Assembly: GCA_037147375.1 (NCBI GenBank)
Contig: JBAWVI010000041.1
Location: 1-8,291, forward strand
DNA: 8,291 bases
Direction of reading: 5' to 3'
Source of the DNA: an archaeon
GTDB taxonomy: Archaea; Iainarchaeota; Iainarchaeia; Iainarchaeales; CSSED10-239
Shown: positions 981 to 5,792 of the stretch, piece by piece
How the letters are laid out: the number at the start of each line of letters is the position of its first letter
Numbering within the stretch: position 1 is the stretch's first letter
Made by a program: the position numbers and the translations under genes
Notes under the pieces: model-generated
What the model saw: the letters and a program-made list of their open reading frames with translations, nothing else
Databases searched by the model: none
What the model was told of the DNA's origin: nothing

Positions 981-2855
981 TTATGGTTTACTCCTCTCGT
1001 TTAGAGATTCTGTAAAATAAGAAAGAACATCTGTTGGGGAGGGGGAGAGGTTTTTTCTAGTTTGGATGTCCAAGAAATATAACAACTTTTTATTTTGCTT
1101 TTTAAATAATTTATTTAATTCTGCATTTGTCTTGATTCCAAAAGCCATCCTAAACTTATCAAACAGCTTTTTTGGAGTTCCAACTCTTACAAGCTTTTCT
1201 TTATTTATATCAAACTCAAACAATTTGTTTAAGGTTGGTTTATTATTTTCAAAAACCACTTCACAAATTTCAGTAATATTTCTAAGATCAGATACTTTAC
1301 CTTTATTGTACTTATTATATCTTCTTTGAACAATAATTAAATCAATAACAGACAAATCATTTTCAATAACACCATAAGAAACTAATCTTAGAAGAGCTTC
1401 CTTTGCGTTTTGAGAATGAAAAGTGGTATATGTTCCTTTTGCTTGACCACAAAGCATAGAATCAATTATTGCTCTTGCTTCTTCTCTTGATCTAACTTCT
1501 CCAATAACCACTCTATCAGGTCTCATTCTAAGTGTATTAATTACAAGAGAATCAAGAGTAATTCCAAGATCTGAGTTTACAAGAGTAAATATCTTATGCT
1601 CGTGTGGAATATTTATTTCTCTAACTTCTTCAACCACAACAAACCTTTCATCAAATGGAACAAAAGATAAAAGTGTGTTAAGTGTAGTTGTTTTACCAGA
1701 ACCAGTGTTACCTACAACAAAAACATTTGAATCAGTTAAGAAAGCAAGAGATAAAAAAGAAAGAGCATAAATTGATAACGTGTTTCTTTTAATTAAATCC
1801 ACAATTGTAAATGGCTTTTCAGAAAACTTCCTAATTGTAACACACACGCTTTCTGTAATTGGAGAAATAATTGCATTCATTCTTGAAGCACCAATTGTAG
1901 CATCAAGAAGTGGATTTTTCAAAGTTATATATTTATTTGTTTCCCAGGATAGTTTATTAATTAAATCTTTAATTATCTTTGAAGATGTGTAAATTAGATT
2001 TGTTTCAAGCCATCCATAAGTTCTATGATACACAAAAACTGGTTTGTTTTCTCCAATTATTGAAATTTCTTCTAAACTATCATCTGCAAGCAATTTAGAG
2101 AGAGGCCCATAATCATAAAGATTGCTGTATGCAAGTAAAAGAATATAATTAAACTGATCAGACTCAAGTTCAATTTTTTCTCTATAACAATAATTAACTA
2201 AGGTTTCTTCAAGTTCTTCTTTTACAATTTCAGGAAGCTTATCTAGTTTACTTATTTTATCTTGCTTTTCTTTATCATCCTTAATATCAAATCTTTCTCT
2301 ATATTCATCTATAACTAAATTAATTATTTCAATTTCGTCTATTGAAAGAATAGATTCATCAATAAAATAATGCTTCTTTCCAAAATCATCTATGCATACG
2401 TTCTTTGATATGTTTCTTTTATTAAATTCAATTATTTTATATCCAAGATATTTATTAATAATTTCTAATTCTTCGTTTTTGCTTGTGTCTGTAACTAGTT
2501 CTAAGATATCAGGATTATTCTTTAAACAATACATGTTAAATGATTGATAAGAGCATAAATCACATTTTTGTGCCTTACTTTTCTTTAAAATAAGTGCATT
2601 ATTAGGGCAAGCTTCAATACATGCCTTGCATCCATTACATCTTGCTTGATCAATTGATACAACTCCTTTTGCAGAAAAATAGATTGCATTAGTTTTACAA
2701 GAATTTAAGCAAGGCGGATCTTCACAATTTTTACAATTAAAAATAATTATTGAATCTCTAGTTTTAAATTCATATGGACAATTAAGAAAAAGGTTTTTGT
2801 TTTTTCTCTTAGATAGTAGCTTAGATGTTTCTTCATTTTTAAATTTAATATACAT
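981..2855 (-). CDS. Type II/IV secretion / type IV filament assembly ATPase (FlaI/PilB/CpaF-VirB11 superfamily) with an N-terminal 4Fe-4S ferredoxin-like domain
   Basis: ORF track, 624 aa. ATPase core motifs are present:
- Walker A: VVGNTGSGKTTTLNTL (encoded around 1691-1717).
- Asp box: ERFVVVEEVREINIP.
- Walker B: LRMRPDRVVIGEVRSREEA.
- His box: KGTYTTFHSQ.
Upstream are blocks typical of the FlaI/GspE N-terminal domain (LEEISIIGENKPVFVYHRTYGWLETN, DATIGASRMNAI, VTIRKFSEKPFTIVDLI). The N-terminal region of about 110 aa is Cys-rich (see the separate feature). GTGAT lies 8 nt upstream of the ATG at 2855-2853. Confidence 0.9.
   Translation of the reverse strand: MYIKFKNEETSKLLSKRKNKNLFLNCPYEFKTRDSIIIFNCKNCEDPPCLNSCKTNAIYFSAKGVVSIDQARCNGCKACIEACPNNALILKKSKAQKCDLCSYQSFNMYCLKNNPDILELVTDTSKNEELEIINKYLGYKIIEFNKRNISKNVCIDDFGKKHYFIDESILSIDEIEIINLVIDEYRERFDIKDDKEKQDKISKLDKLPEIVKEELEETLVNYCYREKIELESDQFNYILLLAYSNLYDYGPLSKLLADDSLEEISIIGENKPVFVYHRTYGWLETNLIYTSSKIIKDLINKLSWETNKYITLKNPLLDATIGASRMNAIISPITESVCVTIRKFSEKPFTIVDLIKRNTLSIYALSFLSLAFLTDSNVFVVGNTGSGKTTTLNTLLSFVPFDERFVVVEEVREINIPHEHKIFTLVNSDLGITLDSLVINTLRMRPDRVVIGEVRSREEARAIIDSMLCGQAKGTYTTFHSQNAKEALLRLVSYGVIENDLSVIDLIIVQRRYNKYNKGKVSDLRNITEICEVVFENNKPTLNKLFEFDINKEKLVRVGTPKKLFDKFRMAFGIKTNAELNKLFKKQNKKLLYFLDIQTRKNLSPSPTDVLSYFTESLNERSKP
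2526..2780 (-). other. Cys-rich polyferredoxin-like module (residues ~26-110 of the ATPase ORF)
   Basis: Twelve Cys occur in about 85 aa. The groups are CKNCEDPPCLNSC followed by KTNAIYF (C-x2-C-x4-C-x3-C), CNGCKACIEACP (C-x2-C-x2-C-x3-C-P, the canonical 4Fe-4S motif), and KCDLC...YC. The spacing and flanking residues match DmsB/NrfC/PsrB-type 4Fe-4S dicluster domains as I remember them. Confidence 0.7.
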
Positions 2856-2959: not shown

Positions 2960-3754
2960 TTATGGGTTATTAATATCAAACACGTTTGCCATAGCATTGT
3001 AACTTGATTTAAACTTTTGATATAATTCTGAAAAGTTAGTTAACATAGTTGTGTTAAGTCTACCTTCAATCCCATTCATTGAATCGGATATACTTACATT
3101 AATATCATTTATCTTAGAATTAACAGACCCAAATTGAGTGTTTACGTTACTAAATTCATTCATAATATTATTATCAATATAATTTTGTACACCATATACT
3201 CTAGCATCAACTGAATTTATTCTTTCAGTTAAATTACTATCAAGGTCATTTAATCTTTGAACAAGTGCAACATATTGCTCTCTTTGTGATCTTGAAACCT
3301 CTACAATTAAATTAAGTCCTGTTGAAACGTGGAATGAAGAAGATACTTGTAATAATCTTGGAGTTCCATTTCTAATTACTGTACATCTAATATATTCTTC
3401 ATATATTCCTTCATTCTCTGGAGTAATAAATGAAACATAATAGTTTCCTGGAACAGTTGTTGAAATCATTTCTCTATCCACAAAGAAAAAAGATTTATCA
3501 GGATATAATAAAGACACAATACAATTTGCATCAGTTATTGATATTCCTTTTGAATCTTGCAGTCTAACAATTATCTGACCTTGCTCATTACTTATGTATT
3601 CAGTTCCTGATACCATCTTAAGATCTGATGCAACTCCTCTTCCTTTAAAGTAAAAGAAAAGGAACGTGCCTATAGCAAGAAGAAGGATTATACCTATTAC
3701 AAAGTATATTCTTTTATCACTTAGATTTTCTCGCATGTGGGATCTAAACATCAT
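2960..3754 (-). CDS. N-terminally membrane-anchored surface protein, short paralogue of the 643-aa repeat protein (2-Cys beta-rich domain plus about one degenerate repeat unit)
   Basis: ORF track, 264 aa. A basic stretch (SDKR) precedes a hydrophobic helix, IYFVIGIILLLAIGTFLFFYF. Residues ~47-143 align by eye with residues ~46-145 of the 643-aa protein. Shared blocks are TEY, IVRL-D--G, C-V--L-PDKS-F, GN-Y, G-YE, C, NGT and SSFH. The C-terminal part (INDINVSISDSMNGIEGRLNTTMLTNFSELY) resembles the 55-aa repeat of the larger gene. About five N-X-S/T sequons lie after the anchor. Confidence 0.75.
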   Translation of the reverse strand: MMFRSHMRENLSDKRIYFVIGIILLLAIGTFLFFYFKGRGVASDLKMVSGTEYISNEQGQIIVRLQDSKGISITDANCIVSLLYPDKSFFFVDREMISTTVPGNYYVSFITPENEGIYEEYIRCTVIRNGTPRLLQVSSSFHVSTGLNLIVEVSRSQREQYVALVQRLNDLDSNLTERINSVDARVYGVQNYIDNNIMNEFSNVNTQFGSVNSKINDINVSISDSMNGIEGRLNTTMLTNFSELYQKFKSSYNAMANVFDINNP

Positions 3755-3860: not shown

Positions 3861-5792
3861 TTATGATATTATTCTAACATCAATCTGACTCTGTTGATTA
3901 TCTAAAATCTCATGAGCTGTTGAATTGATGTCTGTTGTTTGTGATTTTATGATACCAATGTCTGTTAATAATGTATCAATTCTTGATGATATACTTCCTG
4001 AAAGATATTCCCAGGTTGTTGTTGTAGTATTATCTATCTCATCAAGTCTTGCTACTTGTTCATTATGCATTACTACAGCTGCTGCTTTGATATTATATAT
4101 TTCTTGACACAATGCACTTGAATCTGTTTGTGGATTTGAACAAAATTGTTCAAGTAAAGCAATGTTTCCATCAATATTTGCAAATCTTTGGTCTATTGCT
4201 ACTCTATCTGTGTCATTCATAGCATGTACTGTAAGCCATGTAGTATCATCCTTAACACTTTGTACTTGTGTTGATAATTGTTCAAGCATTACGTTTAATT
4301 GAGCATTTAAGTCTCCAGCAACAAGGCTTGTAATCATATTAGATAAAGATGAATTAACATCTGATAAATCTGATTTGATTTCTTGTCCTGTAGTTACTAC
4401 TTGTCCATTAACGCTAACTTCTAAACTATCAAGTCTTGCACTTAAGAAATTATTTGAATCTAAGAACTTTTGTGCAATTAAAGCATTTGTGTTATTAAAT
4501 TGGTTTGTGATTTGACTTGACAAACTTACGTTTAATGCATCTAAGATATCTGTTAAGTTTGTATTAACGTTTGTTAAGTTTGTGTTTATCTCGTCACCAG
4601 TATCTTGAACCTTTGCATTTAAACTTAAATTTACGTTTTCTAATTGAGCAGAAAGTTCAGCAAATTTAGTTGTCATTTGTGTTGAAAGGTTTGTGTTTAC
4701 TGTGTTTAAAAGGTTTGTTAAAGATGTATCAACGTTTGTTAAGTGTGCGTTAATAGCGTCACCAGTAGCAACCATTCTTCCATCTATACTTAAGTTAATA
4801 TCTTCTAAGTTATTTCCAAGAGCTAAAAACTCAGAGCCCATTTGGTTTGAAAGGTTTGTGTTTACTGTGTTTAAGATATTTGTCATTGATGTATTAACAT
4901 CACTTAAGTTTGTAGTAATGATTTGTCCTGTTTCTGCAACCTTTGCCATGATTGTTAAATTAACATCACTTAATTGTGCAGTTTCTGCATTAAATGAACT
5001 TAACATCTGACCTGAAAGGTTAGTATTTACTGTATTTAATAAACTTGTTAATGATGTGTTTGATGTACTAATACTTGTTTGTAATTCTTGTCCTGTAGTT
5101 ACTACAGTTCCAGTAATACTTACATTAACATCATTTAATTGTGTCCCAAGTGTATTAATTCCTTCAGCTAATTGGCTTGTAACACCTGTATTAACATCTG
5201 TTACTAAATTATTTAAGTTTGTATTCATGTTTGCTATGTTTGTTGTTAATGTTTGATTTGTGTCTGCAATCTTTGCACTTAAAGAAACATTTACTTGTCC
5301 AAGGTTTGCATCAAGTGCATCTACCTTTTCAGTAACTATCTTAACTTGCTCTAAAGCTGGATTTAAGTGGAATGATTGAGATGTTTTAACTGTTTGTGTT
5401 CCGTTTACACAAGTTACTTCTTGTTCGTATGTTCCAAGTGGAGCACCAACAAGTGAATCTGTTCTATACCAGTTTCCTGCAATATTTGATAAAGCCATTG
5501 GCTGGTTATTAACAAATGTACTTTTATCAGGTCTTAAGATTGTAACATTACAAGATTCAACTTGATATGGTTCACCTTGATAATCAGCAAGTCTTACTAT
5601 TGTTGAGGCTACATCATCTCTCCAATATTCAGTGTGAGAAACCCAACTGACTACTGGTTCATTAACTGTTTGTTTACCATCAGTGTATGCAAATGCAAAA
5701 AATGCAATTACAACAATTATAATGGTTGAAACAATACCCCATTTAATAAGCTTCTTTTTTTTGTTTGTATATTTTGGATTTAAATCTTCCAT
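3861..5792 (-). CDS. Large N-terminally anchored surface protein: 2-Cys beta-rich domain, six 55-aa Asn/Thr/Ser/Leu/Val-rich tandem repeats, non-repetitive C-terminal domain
   Basis: ORF track, 643 aa.
- A KKKKLIK stretch precedes the hydrophobic helix WGIVSTIIIVVIAFFAFAY (positive-inside, so the C-terminus is predicted outside).
- GGTGA (plus 5800-5804) lies 7 nt upstream of the ATG at 5792-5790.
- The membrane-proximal domain is at aa ~46-145 and carries C81 and C128.
- The repeat block is at aa 164-508.
- The C-terminal domain is at aa ~509-643 and carries C551 and C562.
I counted about 22 N-X-S/T sequons by hand. Confidence 0.85.
   Translation of the reverse strand: MEDLNPKYTNKKKKLIKWGIVSTIIIVVIAFFAFAYTDGKQTVNEPVVSWVSHTEYWRDDVASTIVRLADYQGEPYQVESCNVTILRPDKSTFVNNQPMALSNIAGNWYRTDSLVGAPLGTYEQEVTCVNGTQTVKTSQSFHLNPALEQVKIVTEKVDALDANLGQVNVSLSAKIADTNQTLTTNIANMNTNLNNLVTDVNTGVTSQLAEGINTLGTQLNDVNVSITGTVVTTGQELQTSISTSNTSLTSLLNTVNTNLSGQMLSSFNAETAQLSDVNLTIMAKVAETGQIITTNLSDVNTSMTNILNTVNTNLSNQMGSEFLALGNNLEDINLSIDGRMVATGDAINAHLTNVDTSLTNLLNTVNTNLSTQMTTKFAELSAQLENVNLSLNAKVQDTGDEINTNLTNVNTNLTDILDALNVSLSSQITNQFNNTNALIAQKFLDSNNFLSARLDSLEVSVNGQVVTTGQEIKSDLSDVNSSLSNMITSLVAGDLNAQLNVMLEQLSTQVQSVKDDTTWLTVHAMNDTDRVAIDQRFANIDGNIALLEQFCSNPQTDSSALCQEIYNIKAAAVVMHNEQVARLDEIDNTTTTTWEYLSGSISSRIDTLLTDIGIIKSQTTDINSTAHEILDNQQSQIDVRIIS
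4269..5303 (-). repeat. In-frame tandem repeat array, period 165 nt (55 aa), six units; the central units are the best conserved
   Basis: The 26-mer GAAAGGTTTGTGTTTACTGTGTTTAA occurs at 4684-4709 and again at 4849-4874, exactly 165 nt apart. A degenerate copy, GAAAGGTTAGTATTTACTGTATTTAA, lies at 5014-5039, a further 165 nt on. The protein units start at L164, L219, L274, L329, L384 and, after a 15-aa insertion, L454. The unit consensus is roughly L-x-[DN]-V-N-[VL]-S-[IL]-x-[AG]-x-V-x-[DT]-T-G-x-x-I-x-T-N-L-[ST]-x-V-N-T-[SN]-[LM]-T-x-[IL]-L-N-T-V-N-T-N-L-S-x-Q-M. Confidence 0.9.

What the first reader, a model, noticed from the sequence alone, without database searches (positions are those of the whole stretch)
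4269..5303. Six 55-aa tandem repeats saturated with position-conserved N-X-S/T sequons
Seen in sequence:
- The repeat period is exactly 165 nt. An identical 26-mer occurs at 4684 and 4849, and a degenerate copy at 5014.
- Protein units begin at L164, L219, L274, L329, L384 and L454.
- By hand count, about 17 of the roughly 22 N-X-S/T sequons in the protein fall in this block. They recur at fixed repeat positions (V-N-[VL]-S near the unit start, N-T-S or N-L-T mid-unit, N-T-N-L-S late).
- The block has almost no Lys/Arg or aromatic residues and no Pro. Leu/Val/Ile spacing is regular, as in helical or coiled-coil structure.

Established knowledge: archaeal AglB glycosylates N-X-S/T sequons, and archaeal surface proteins, pilins and S-layer proteins are often heavily N-glycosylated.

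Inference:
- The block is probably an extended, glycan-coated stalk that holds the C-terminal domain away from the cell.
- Near-identical DNA between the central units suggests recent expansion or gene conversion, so repeat number may vary between strains.
- I do not recognise the repeat as a named family.
Basis: partly seen in the sequence, partly recalled or inferred. Interest (0 to 1): 0.62.

Follow-up and report, generated by a model that had tools for sequence, protein, structure and literature searches.

The report
Even-numbered repeat rod on archaeal surface protein
The six 55-residue repeats are real and form the variable-length middle of a membrane-anchored surface protein found in tiny uncultured (DPANN) archaea; relatives carry 2, 4, 6, 8 or 10 repeats but never an odd number, while the many glycosylation motifs in this copy are roughly what its Asn/Ser/Thr-rich composition would give by chance.

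Summary
Observation confirmed. The 643-aa gene (3861-5792, minus strand) holds five 55-aa units in perfect register, plus a sixth after a 15-aa insert. It has 22 N-X-S/T sequons, 17 of them in the block, and the block has no Pro, Trp, Tyr or Cys.

Interpretation partly supported.
- **Location:** a single N-terminal anchor with positive charge before it puts the block outside the cell. The genome encodes AglB.
- **Sequons:** Across 208 family units, however, Asn and Ser/Thr at +2 are coupled (z=7.6; controls -4.6 to +2.9).
- **Fold:** two AlphaFold runs give each unit as a β-hairpin plus a helix, not one continuous helix. The block model has no significant PDB match.
- **Age:** units are 27-53% identical and match by position in orthologs at 47-58% identity, so the expansion is not recent.

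New findings. This is an unnamed family in Iainarchaeota and Woese-/Pacearchaeota that almost always sits beside a short paralog. Unit number is 2, 4, 6, 8 or 10. It changed about 17 times on the tree and ranges from 2 to 10 within one genus. In the 8- and 10-unit proteins the first and second halves grew equally. This suggests a two-unit structural period or a folded-back two-armed rod. Function is untested.

The parts
3861..5792 (-). Whole gene: 643-aa membrane-anchored repeat protein, the 'long' member of a conserved long+short pair
   Evidence: ORF list. 68 homologs, of which the ones carrying a source name are from DPANN archaea. Genome loci in Iainarchaeum, Forterrea, Woese-/Pacearchaeota and Nanoarchaeia.
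5685..5792 (-). aa 1-36: Lys-rich cytoplasmic tail and the single transmembrane anchor (N-in, C-out)
   Evidence: The only 19-residue windows with Kyte-Doolittle score above 1.6 start at aa 13-21. K/R count is 5 before the segment and 1 after. AlphaFold helix 6-44. Only 1 of 85 family members has a class III (prepilin) signal motif.
5364..5654 (-). aa 47-143: Ig-like β-sandwich with the conserved Cys81/Cys128 pair and the WVSHTEYW motif
   Evidence: AlphaFold strands with pLDDT 80-94. Foldseek matches to filamin, macroglobulin-type and Sap S-layer domains. Invariant residues. Shared with the 264-aa paralog.
5136..5300 (-). Repeat unit 1 (aa 165-219)
   Evidence: Unit HMM, 77.8 bits. AlphaFold strands 163-175 and 180-192, helix 193-214.
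4971..5135 (-). Repeat unit 2 (aa 220-274)
   Evidence: Unit HMM, 81.9 bits. AlphaFold strands 219-230 and 236-246, helix 248-271.
4806..4970 (-). Repeat unit 3 (aa 275-329); holds one copy of the identical 26-mer (4849-4874)
   Evidence: Unit HMM, 87.5 bits. 26-mer check. AlphaFold strands 274-285 and 291-301, helix 303-328.
4641..4805 (-). Repeat unit 4 (aa 330-384); holds the other copy of the identical 26-mer (4684-4709)
   Evidence: Unit HMM, 90.9 bits. AlphaFold strands 329-340 and 346-354, helix 358-381.
4476..4640 (-). Repeat unit 5 (aa 385-439)
   Evidence: Unit HMM, 81.0 bits. Same codon as unit 4 at 21 of 24 identical residues.
4422..4475 (-). aa 440-457: spacer (about 15 extra residues) that breaks the 55-aa register before the last unit
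   Evidence: Unit HMM coordinates. Lowest pLDDT in the AlphaFold model, residues 432-453.
4266..4421 (-). Repeat unit 6 (aa 458-509), divergent
   Evidence: Unit HMM, 27.9 bits. The same divergent last unit occurs in all 6-, 8- and 10-unit relatives.
3864..4265 (-). aa 510-643: conserved C-terminal helical domain with the Cys551/Cys562 pair
   Evidence: Invariant C551, C562, I622 and T625. AlphaFold helices 483-523, 530-551, 560-589 and 593-635.
2960..3754 (-). 264-aa short paralog: N-terminal anchor, the same 2-Cys Ig-like domain, and a short helical tail with one weak unit-like stretch
   Evidence: E=5e-17 to the long protein. Adjacent to the long gene in 26 of 27 loci from several DPANN lineages. 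Weak unit-HMM hit at aa 210-244.

Best explanation
The block is the length-variable middle of a type II (N-in, C-out) membrane-anchored cell-surface protein of a DPANN archaeon.

**Architecture.** The order of parts is: Lys-rich tail, one transmembrane helix, a disulfide-bearing Ig-like domain, six 55-residue units, and a conserved helical C-terminal domain with a second Cys pair.

**Unit structure.** Each unit spans five 11-residue hydrophobic periods. It most likely folds as a ~25-residue β-hairpin followed by a ~25-residue Leu-rich helix. In the hairpin, an alternating V-N-L-S-I-x-G-x-V strand leads into a T-G turn and a return strand. The hairpin's polar face carries the best-conserved N-x-S/T motif.

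**Array.** The units build a rod or array whose size evolves quickly, but only in steps that keep the unit number even (2 to 10). In the 8- and 10-unit relatives the first-half and second-half unit types grew equally. I infer that the structural period is two units, or that the array folds back into two equal arms, so that the N- and C-terminal domains stay in a fixed relation.

**Likely role.** The protein probably works with its always-adjacent short paralog as an envelope, spacer or contact structure, and is probably N-glycosylated by AglB.

**Shown:** the repeats, the family, the gene pairing, the even-only counts, the topology signals and the presence of AglB. **Inferred:** the fold, the two-arm or two-unit geometry, glycosylation and function.
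For: - **Repeat reality:**
- **Topology:** a single N-terminal transmembrane segment with positive charge inside, and conserved Cys pairs in both flanking domains.
- **Fold:** two independent AlphaFold runs, on the full protein and on the block alone, give hairpin plus helix in every unit. Central units reach pLDDT 70-83.
- **Family unit profile (208 units):** hydrophobic residues alternate at positions 2/4/6/(8)/10. Positions 1-26 are rich in V, I and T, there is a T13-G14 turn, and positions 28-54 are Leu-rich. Strict 11-residue spacing runs through 6/10, 17/21, 28/32, 39/43 and 50/54. The hydrophobic moment is β-type over strand 1 and helical over positions 25-33.
- **Family breadth:** 68 word-index homologs. 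110 representatives at E<1e-30, though that set also includes short paralogs, fragments and large proteins matched only by the repeat region.
- **Gene pairing:** the long and short genes are adjacent in 26 of 27 loci.
- **Unit counts:** 2/4/6 by length class, with 8 and 10 in Iainarchaeum and Forterrea.
- **Evolution of the count:** about 17 changes on a tree built from the non-repeat domains. Open frames of 412-866 aa occur within one genus.
- **Balanced growth:** unit types run 1,2,3,3,4,4,5,6 in the 8-unit protein and 1,2,2,2,3,4,4,4,5,6 in the 10-unit proteins.
- **Glycosylation:** AglB is present in the genome. Family-wide N...S/T coupling has z=7.6 against controls of -4.6 to +2.9. Distant members P0072 and P0097 are very sequon-dense.
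Against: - **Model quality is moderate:** pTM is 0.40-0.41 and mean pLDDT is 71 (full protein) and 59 (block).
- **No coordinates or contact maps were available,** so the packing of units, including any fold-back, was never seen.
- **The 11-residue periodicity also fits an all-helical reading.** So do the profile hits to apolipoproteins (E=4e-16).
- **Covariation across units did not recover a hairpin ladder**.
- **The 2-unit against 4-unit comparisons look more like A-B-A-B than A-A-B-B**. The two-arm reading therefore rests mainly on one clade.
- **Sequon evidence in this protein is weak.** Density is not above the composition expectation, and individual sequons turn over among orthologs.
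- **The z=7.6 coupling is inflated** by relatedness among the units.
- **There are no expression, localisation or glycan data.**
Confidence: 0.55

Rival explanations
1. First reader's model. The whole block is one continuous α-helical (hendecad, coiled-coil-type) stalk, heavily glycosylated. It runs once outward and holds the C-terminal domain away from the cell, in the manner of the tetrabrachion or SlaB stalks.
For: - Strict 11-residue hydrophobic periodicity over all 55 positions.
- Sub-threshold profile matches to 11/22-mer helical proteins: Apolipoprotein at 52.5 bits and PDB apoA-IV at E=4e-16.
- No Pro in the block.
- A few i,i+4 couplings at unit positions 13-22.
Against: - Both AlphaFold runs place β-hairpins in every unit.
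- The sequence argues against a helix in the first half of each unit. Hydrophobic residues alternate at positions 2/4/6/10, Gly is common at positions 8 and 14, and the segment is rich in β-branched residues.
- A single-pass stalk gives no reason for unit numbers to be only even, or for the two halves to grow equally.
- The Pfam hits are of a kind known to arise by convergence.
Confidence: 0.22
2. The two paralogs are unusual pilin-like or tip subunits of a type IV filament assembled by the FlaI-like ATPase and FlaJ-like platform genes immediately downstream. On this reading the repeat block decorates that filament.
For: - The genes are co-directional with the ATPase (981-2855) and the platform gene (237-980).
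- An N-terminal hydrophobic helix followed by a β-sandwich is the general shape of archaeal pilins.
- The genome has two A24 prepilin peptidases.
Against: - Only 1 of 85 family members has a class III signal motif.
- The ATPase and platform genes follow the pair only in the window's closest relatives (L003, L004, L017). They do not in the other 24 loci examined.
- The family has a conserved AY-x-x-GK motif after the anchor rather than before it.
Confidence: 0.07
3. The sequons are incidental. The Asn/Ser/Thr richness serves the fold, through polar faces of strands and helices, and the protein is little or not glycosylated.
For: - Block sequons number 17 against 13.3±2.9 expected (p=0.13).
- Sequon Asn and +2 Ser/Thr are no better conserved than other Asn, Ser or Thr in orthologs.
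- Homologs range from 1 to 24 sequons, and P0041 has one.
Against: - Family-wide coupling of N with S/T at +2 has z=7.6, while the reverse motif and the D/Q/E-x-S/T and N-x-other controls are not enriched.
- 59 of 69 homologs lie above their shuffle mean.
- AglB is present in the genome.
- The block is extracellular.
Confidence: 0.25
4. A cytoplasmic or lipid-binding apolipoprotein-, phasin- or LEA-like amphipathic repeat protein, meaning true homology to PF01442.
For: Best Pfam and PDB sequence matches are apolipoproteins.
Against: - The score of 52.5 bits is well under the 90-bit cut-off.
- There are no Pro-punctuated 22-mers.
- The N-terminal anchor and Cys pairs place the block outside the cell.
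- The flanking domains are unrelated to apolipoproteins.
Confidence: 0.03

Closest known systems
Tetrabrachion stalk of the Staphylothermus marinus S-layer (right-handed hendecad coiled coil); comparison from my own knowledge, not tested by alignment here
   Same: An archaeal cell-surface protein with an 11-residue hydrophobic periodicity, a long rod and many N-X-S/T motifs.
   Different: - Tetrabrachion is anchored at its C-terminus and is a continuous four-helix coiled coil.
- This protein has an N-terminal anchor, a discrete 55-aa unit predicted as hairpin plus helix, and an even-only variable unit number.
- Tetrabrachion was not among the best 60 PDB sequence matches.
SlaB, the S-layer stalk protein of Sulfolobales (from my own knowledge)
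   Same: β-sandwich domain(s) plus an elongated coiled region, membrane-anchored and glycosylated, working with a partner protein encoded next to it.
   Different: - SlaB has a signal peptide and a C-terminal anchor.
- It has no 55-aa tandem units.
- No sequence relationship was detected, and the partner here is a short paralog.
Pfam Apolipoprotein A1/A4/E (PF01442) and Baculo_PEP_C (PF04513)
   Same: These are the best sequence-profile matches: 52.5 and 37.4 bits, and apoA-IV at E=4e-16 with the family profile. They share the 11-residue amphipathic periodicity.
   Different: - Both scores are below the curated cut-offs of 90 and 38 bits.
- The block has no Pro punctuation.
- PF04513 is listed among the Pfam families that most often overlap other families through convergent coiled-coil similarity (PMC3695513).
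- The flanking domains and the topology are unrelated.
Archaeal type IV pilins
   Same: An N-terminal hydrophobic helix followed by an Ig-like β-sandwich. In this genome the gene lies next to FlaI/FlaJ-like genes.
   Different: - There is no class III signal motif (1 of 85).
- A C-terminal extension of about 500 aa is present.
- Linkage to the motor genes is limited to the closest relatives.

Membership tests
Tandem protein repeat (the observation itself) | Fixed period with copies in register and significant unit-to-unit similarity | tested here: met
   165-nt spacing. Autocorrelation peaks at 165 nt and 55 aa. Six unit-HMM hits.
Pfam Apolipoprotein (PF01442) | Score at or above the 90-bit gathering threshold | tested here: not met
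   52.5 bits.
Pfam Apolipoprotein (PF01442) | 22-mer amphipathic helices punctuated by Pro | tested here: not met
   No Pro in the 345-aa block. The period is 55, not 22.
Pfam Baculo_PEP_C (PF04513) | Score at or above the 38-bit gathering threshold | tested here: not met
   37.4 bits for this protein. One homolog, P0051, reaches 39.1. The family is listed among those that most often overlap other coiled-coil families.
Hendecad (11/3) coiled-coil stalk, tetrabrachion type | 11-residue hydrophobic periodicity | tested here: met
   Positions 6/10, 17/21, 28/32, 39/43 and 50/54 are 82-100% hydrophobic among residues present (position 54 is a gap in 40% of units).
Hendecad (11/3) coiled-coil stalk, tetrabrachion type | Uninterrupted α-helix along the rod | tested here: inconclusive
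   AlphaFold predicts a β-hairpin in each unit at moderate confidence. Sequence profiles favour helical proteins.
Hendecad (11/3) coiled-coil stalk, tetrabrachion type | C-terminal membrane anchor | tested here: not met
   The only hydrophobic segment is N-terminal.
Archaeal type IV pilin | Class III signal peptide ([KRDE][GA] followed by a hydrophobic stretch) | tested here: not met
   The pattern is found in 1 of 85 family N-termini, and not in this protein.
Archaeal type IV pilin | Conserved linkage to the assembly ATPase and platform genes | tested here: not met
   Linked only in L003, L004, L017 and the window. Absent in the other 24 loci examined.
Archaeal type IV pilin | N-terminal helix followed by a β-sandwich | tested here: met
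   AlphaFold helix 6-44, then strands 47-143.
AglB-dependent archaeal N-glycoprotein | Sequons on an extracytoplasmic segment | tested here: met
   21 of 22 sequons lie after the anchor... more precisely all 22 are at aa 82-623, after the single N-in/C-out anchor. Topology is predicted, not measured.
AglB-dependent archaeal N-glycoprotein | Oligosaccharyltransferase encoded in the genome | tested here: met
   STT3/AglB match at 90.3 bits, over the cut-off, on contig C74.
AglB-dependent archaeal N-glycoprotein | Sequons enriched beyond composition, as a sign of selection | tested here: inconclusive
   - Block: p=0.13. Whole protein: p=0.04.
- Family units: z=7.6 against controls of -4.6 to +2.9.
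- Individual sites are weakly conserved.
AglB-dependent archaeal N-glycoprotein | Glycan attached to Asn | not testable with these tools
   Needs glycoproteomics on native material.

The most novel reading that the evidence does not exclude
The repeat array is a length-tunable 'ruler' with built-in two-fold logic. Either two units form one structural period, or the array folds back into two equal arms that must be lengthened together. Species of a single genus set it anywhere from 2 to 10 units. Its fold (β-hairpin plus helix on an 11-residue lattice) would have no solved counterpart. It might set the spacing between the envelope of these tiny archaea and their surroundings or host.
Probability: 0.25. 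Interest if true: 0.75.

Novelty: new variant of a known kind. Interest (0 to 1): 0.55.

Why it matters
The cell surfaces of DPANN archaea are almost unknown, although their lifestyle depends on cell contact.

This work defines an unnamed surface-protein pair that recurs across several DPANN lineages. Its central rod changes length often, but only in even numbers of units. That rule is simple and falsifiable, and it constrains the three-dimensional architecture. It also gives natural 2-, 4-, 6-, 8- and 10-unit variants for structural work and cryo-tomography.

The work is also a caution. In an Asn/Ser/Thr-rich repeat, a high count of position-conserved sequons does not by itself show selection for glycosylation.

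Tried and rejected
- **Tandem Repeats Finder** missed the 165-nt array, even at minimum score 30.
- **Foldseek on the full model** (PDB and viral libraries) matched only the Ig-like N-domain, with TM-score about 0.14.
- **Foldseek on the block-only model** found nothing significant: best E=0.07, probability 0.08.
- **Mutual-information covariation** over 208 units did not recover a hairpin ladder or any clear contact pattern.
- **Chou-Fasman-type column propensities** did not separate the two halves of the unit.
- **Unit correspondence between 2- and 4-unit proteins** was too noisy to decide between A-B-A-B and A-A-B-B histories.
- **The listing of cluster members** returned no names.
- **Literature searches** found no description of this family.
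Strain-level copy-number variation and expression could therefore not be checked with reads.
- **The pilin reading was rejected** on the signal-motif and synteny tests.
- **Apolipoprotein and Baculo_PEP_C homology was rejected** on score thresholds and the known convergence problem.
- **No model coordinates or PAE** were available to inspect inter-unit packing.
Full report
**1. The observation**

The finding lies inside one gene, window 3861-5792 on the minus strand, encoding 643 aa. Coordinates 4269-5303 correspond to residues 164-508.

- The 26-mer at 4684 and 4849 is identical, and the copy at 5014 is degenerate.
- The repeat finder reports families with start-to-start spacing of 165, 165, 165 nt.
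- Nucleotide self-identity peaks at lag 165 (0.51). Protein self-identity peaks at lag 55 (0.34).
- A unit HMM places units at 165-219, 220-274, 275-329, 330-384 and 385-439. After about 15 extra residues, a sixth unit lies at 458-509.
- There are 22 N-X-S/T sequons, 17 of them in the block.
- The block contains N 54, T 49, L 49, S 36, K 6, R 2 and F 6, and no P, W, Y or C.

Two qualifications apply. Tandem Repeats Finder does not call the array, because units are only 27-53% identical in protein and 51-65% in DNA. The 'near-identical DNA' is limited to the 26-nt tract.

**2. Are the sequons more than chance?**

Within this protein, not clearly.
- Shuffling the block gives 13.3±2.9 sequons against 17 observed (p=0.13).
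- For the whole protein the figures are 22 against 15.5 (p=0.04).
- The excess is confined to N-[LIVM]-[ST] (12 against 4), which is the repeat motif itself.

Conservation in five orthologs at 47-58% identity is also weak.
- Sequon Asn residues are kept as Asn 3.06 times of 5, against 2.51 for other Asn.
- The +2 Ser/Thr is kept no better than other Ser/Thr.
- A sequon is kept as a sequon 2.0 times of 5.

At family level there is a signal.
- 59 of 69 homologs lie above their shuffle mean, with mean z of +1.2.
- In 208 aligned units, shuffling each column independently gives 355±12 sequons against 443 observed (z=7.6).
- Control motifs give z from -4.6 to +2.9. The controls were the reverse motif, D/Q/E-x-S/T, and N-x-A/G, N-x-D/E, N-x-N/Q and N-x-LIV.
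- Relatedness among units inflates such z-values, so I read this as suggestive only.

Other points bear on glycosylation. The genome encodes an STT3/AglB homolog above the Pfam cut-off. Distant family members P0072 and P0097 are strikingly sequon-dense even though their composition is less biased. Glycosylation is plausible but unproven.

**3. Where the block sits**

The only hydrophobic segment is N-terminal. The only 19-residue windows with Kyte-Doolittle score above 1.6 start at residues 13-21. Five K/R precede the segment and one follows it. AlphaFold makes residues 6-44 a helix.

The family alignment shows two invariant Cys pairs. C81/C128 lie in the domain before the block and C551/C562 in the domain after it. 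This is the signature of a type II, N-in/C-out membrane protein with an extracellular body.

**4. What a unit looks like**

Two AlphaFold runs gave the same secondary structure in every unit: two ~12-residue strands joined by a short turn, then a ~25-residue helix.
- The full-length run used 48 sequences and gave mean pLDDT 71 and pTM 0.40.
- The block-only run used 32 sequences, and its central units reached pLDDT 70-83.

The family unit profile agrees with this split.
- Positions 2, 4, 6, (8) and 10 alternate hydrophobic with polar residues.
- Positions 1-26 are rich in V, I and T.
- T13-G14 is a conserved turn.
- Positions 28-54 are Leu-rich.
- The hydrophobic moment is β-type over strand 1 and helical over positions 25-33.

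At the same time the hydrophobic positions keep a strict 11-residue spacing through the whole unit: 6/10, 17/21, 28/32, 39/43 and 50/54. So 55 equals five hendecads. This periodicity explains the only sequence-profile hits:
- Pfam Apolipoprotein, 52.5 bits against a 90-bit cut-off.
- Baculo_PEP_C, 37.4 bits against a 38-bit cut-off.
- PDB apolipoprotein A-IV at E=4e-16 with the family profile.

PF04513 is listed among the 20 Pfam families that most often overlap other families through convergent coiled-coil similarity (PMC3695513). I treat these hits as analogy, not homology.

Foldseek found no solved structure resembling the block model, with best E=0.07. The full model matched only through its Ig-like N-domain, to filamin, macroglobulin-type and Sap S-layer domains. 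A mutual-information analysis could not confirm the hairpin.

I rate hairpin plus helix as more likely than an all-helical rod, but the question is open.

In the hairpin reading, the best-conserved sequon lies on the solvent-facing side of strand 1. At that site N3 is Asn in 60% of units and position 5 is S/T in 76%.

**5. The family and its neighbours**

The word-index search found 68 homologs, and the few that carry a name are Woesearchaeota, Aenigmarchaeota or Nanoarchaeia. The exhaustive search found 110 representatives at E<1e-30. That set also includes short paralogs, fragments and large proteins hit only through the repeat region.

Genome loci come from Ca. Iainarchaeum, Ca. Forterrea multitransposorum (CP045477.1), Woesearchaeota, Pacearchaeota and Nanoarchaeia. 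Three loci carry titles naming 'uncultured Methanosarcinales' MAGs.

Within the window's own phylum the family is patchy. It occurs in 9 of 215 genomes and 3 of 79 genera.

In 26 of 27 loci the long gene is adjacent to a short paralog. The paralog is 221-298 aa and has the same anchor and 2-Cys Ig-like domain. This is a conserved two-gene module.

The FlaI-like ATPase (with its Fe-S domain) and the FlaJ-like platform gene downstream in the window follow the pair only in the closest relatives, L003, L004 and L017. Only 1 of 85 family N-termini has a class III signal motif, even though the genome has two prepilin peptidases. A pilin role is therefore unlikely.

**6. Copy number: the main new result**

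- Unit number tracks protein length. About 400 aa gives 2 units, about 510 aa gives 4, and about 640 aa gives 6.
- Ca. Iainarchaeum has 8 units (746 aa). Ca. Forterrea and a relative have 10 (864-866 aa).
- Among 84 proteins the spans cluster at about 107, 215, 340, 455 and 565 residues. Two apparent '3-unit' counts are probably detection misses, judged from their protein lengths of 516 and 562 aa.
- No odd number was seen.
- On a tree built only from the N- and C-domains, the unit number changes at least about 17 times. Well-supported branches alone force several changes.
- Within one genus the open frames are 412, 637, 763, 864 and 866 aa.

Length is therefore labile between species, but always even.

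In the clade where growth is recent enough to trace, the extra units are not a duplicated two-unit block.
- Position-specific profiles classify the 8-unit protein as 1,2,3,3,4,4,5,6.
- They classify the 10-unit proteins as 1,2,2,2,3,4,4,4,5,6.
- The first half and the second half therefore each gained the same number of units, through separate single-unit duplications.

In 2-unit proteins the first unit resembles first-half types and the second resembles second-half types. The 2-unit against 4-unit comparisons are noisier and partly look like A-B-A-B.

A simple stalk that passes once from membrane to tip has no reason to forbid odd numbers. I infer one of two things:
- Two units make one structural period. 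A unit of three roughly equal antiparallel segments (strand, strand, helix) would end at the opposite side from where it began, so two units would restore the start side.
- The array folds back into two equal arms.

Either would keep the conserved N- and C-domains in a fixed relation. This is inference. I could not inspect model coordinates.

**7. Age of the repeats**

Units match by position between this protein and orthologs down to about 47% identity. The mean same-index identity is 0.47, against 0.38 between units within a protein. The six-unit state is therefore old in this lineage.

The closest relatives, at 94%, 89% and 81-82% identity, also have six units. No strain-level variation was seen.

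There is, however, an excess of identical codons at identical residues between some units. Units 4 and 5 share 21 of 24 where 0.55 is expected (p=8e-4). The 26-mer itself has a chance of about 0.008 given the peptide and the gene's codon usage. Short-tract gene conversion is a reasonable explanation.

**8. Verdict**

- 'Surface-exposed, probably glycosylated, unnamed repeat' stands.
- 'Sequon-saturated beyond chance', 'purely helical' and 'recent expansion' do not stand as stated.

What is really there is the variable core of an uncharacterised DPANN surface-protein family. The family has a conserved short partner and an even-only repeat rule, and its function is untested. I file it as a new variant of a known kind, namely archaeal membrane-anchored repeat or stalk surface proteins. 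It has no detectable homology to the known examples.

Noticed in passing
L017:6496-6498 (the same-genus MAG CAZCAP010000006.1), equivalent to window 5295-5297: The 89%-identical ortholog has a single in-frame stop, TAA where the window has CAA (codon 166), at the very start of the repeat block. The rest of the frame is intact. This could be a recent pseudogene, a population variant or a consensus error.
   Followed up: partly
L034:5626-8887 (Woesearchaeota MAG JABICX010000005.1): Two 2-unit long copies (400 and 401 aa) flank one short paralog. This is a local duplication of the long gene.
   Followed up: no
window 981-2855 (-): The FlaI/T2SSE-type ATPase carries an N-terminal 4Fe-4S dicluster domain (Fer4_11 and Fer4 hits at aa 40-102).
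   Followed up: no
window 4476-4805 (-), units 4 and 5: Units 4 and 5 use the same codon at 21 of 24 identical residues, where 55% is expected. Units 3-4 and 3-5 are also high, at 77-78%. This points to short-tract gene conversion or a codon-level constraint, although the units match by position in orthologs.
   Followed up: partly
own phylum (genome search): The family is present in only 9 of 215 genomes (3 of 79 genera) of the window's phylum, yet it is common in Woese-/Pacearchaeota. This suggests lateral transfer between DPANN lineages or extensive loss.
   Followed up: no
P0082 (2337 aa, NCBI source), hit by the repeat part of the family profile: A giant protein with a C-terminal anchor has about ten sequon-dense helical repeats of roughly 110-120 aa, of the form ...LDxINxTLH.... 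It looks like a separate family of sequon-rich hendecad surface stalks.
   Followed up: no
window 2960-3754 (-), aa 202-247 of the 264-aa paralog: The short paralog's tail contains one weak unit-like stretch (INDINVSISDSMNGIEGRLNTTMLTNF; unit HMM 8.5 bits). Its length of 221-298 aa does not scale with the unit number of the long partner.
   Followed up: partly
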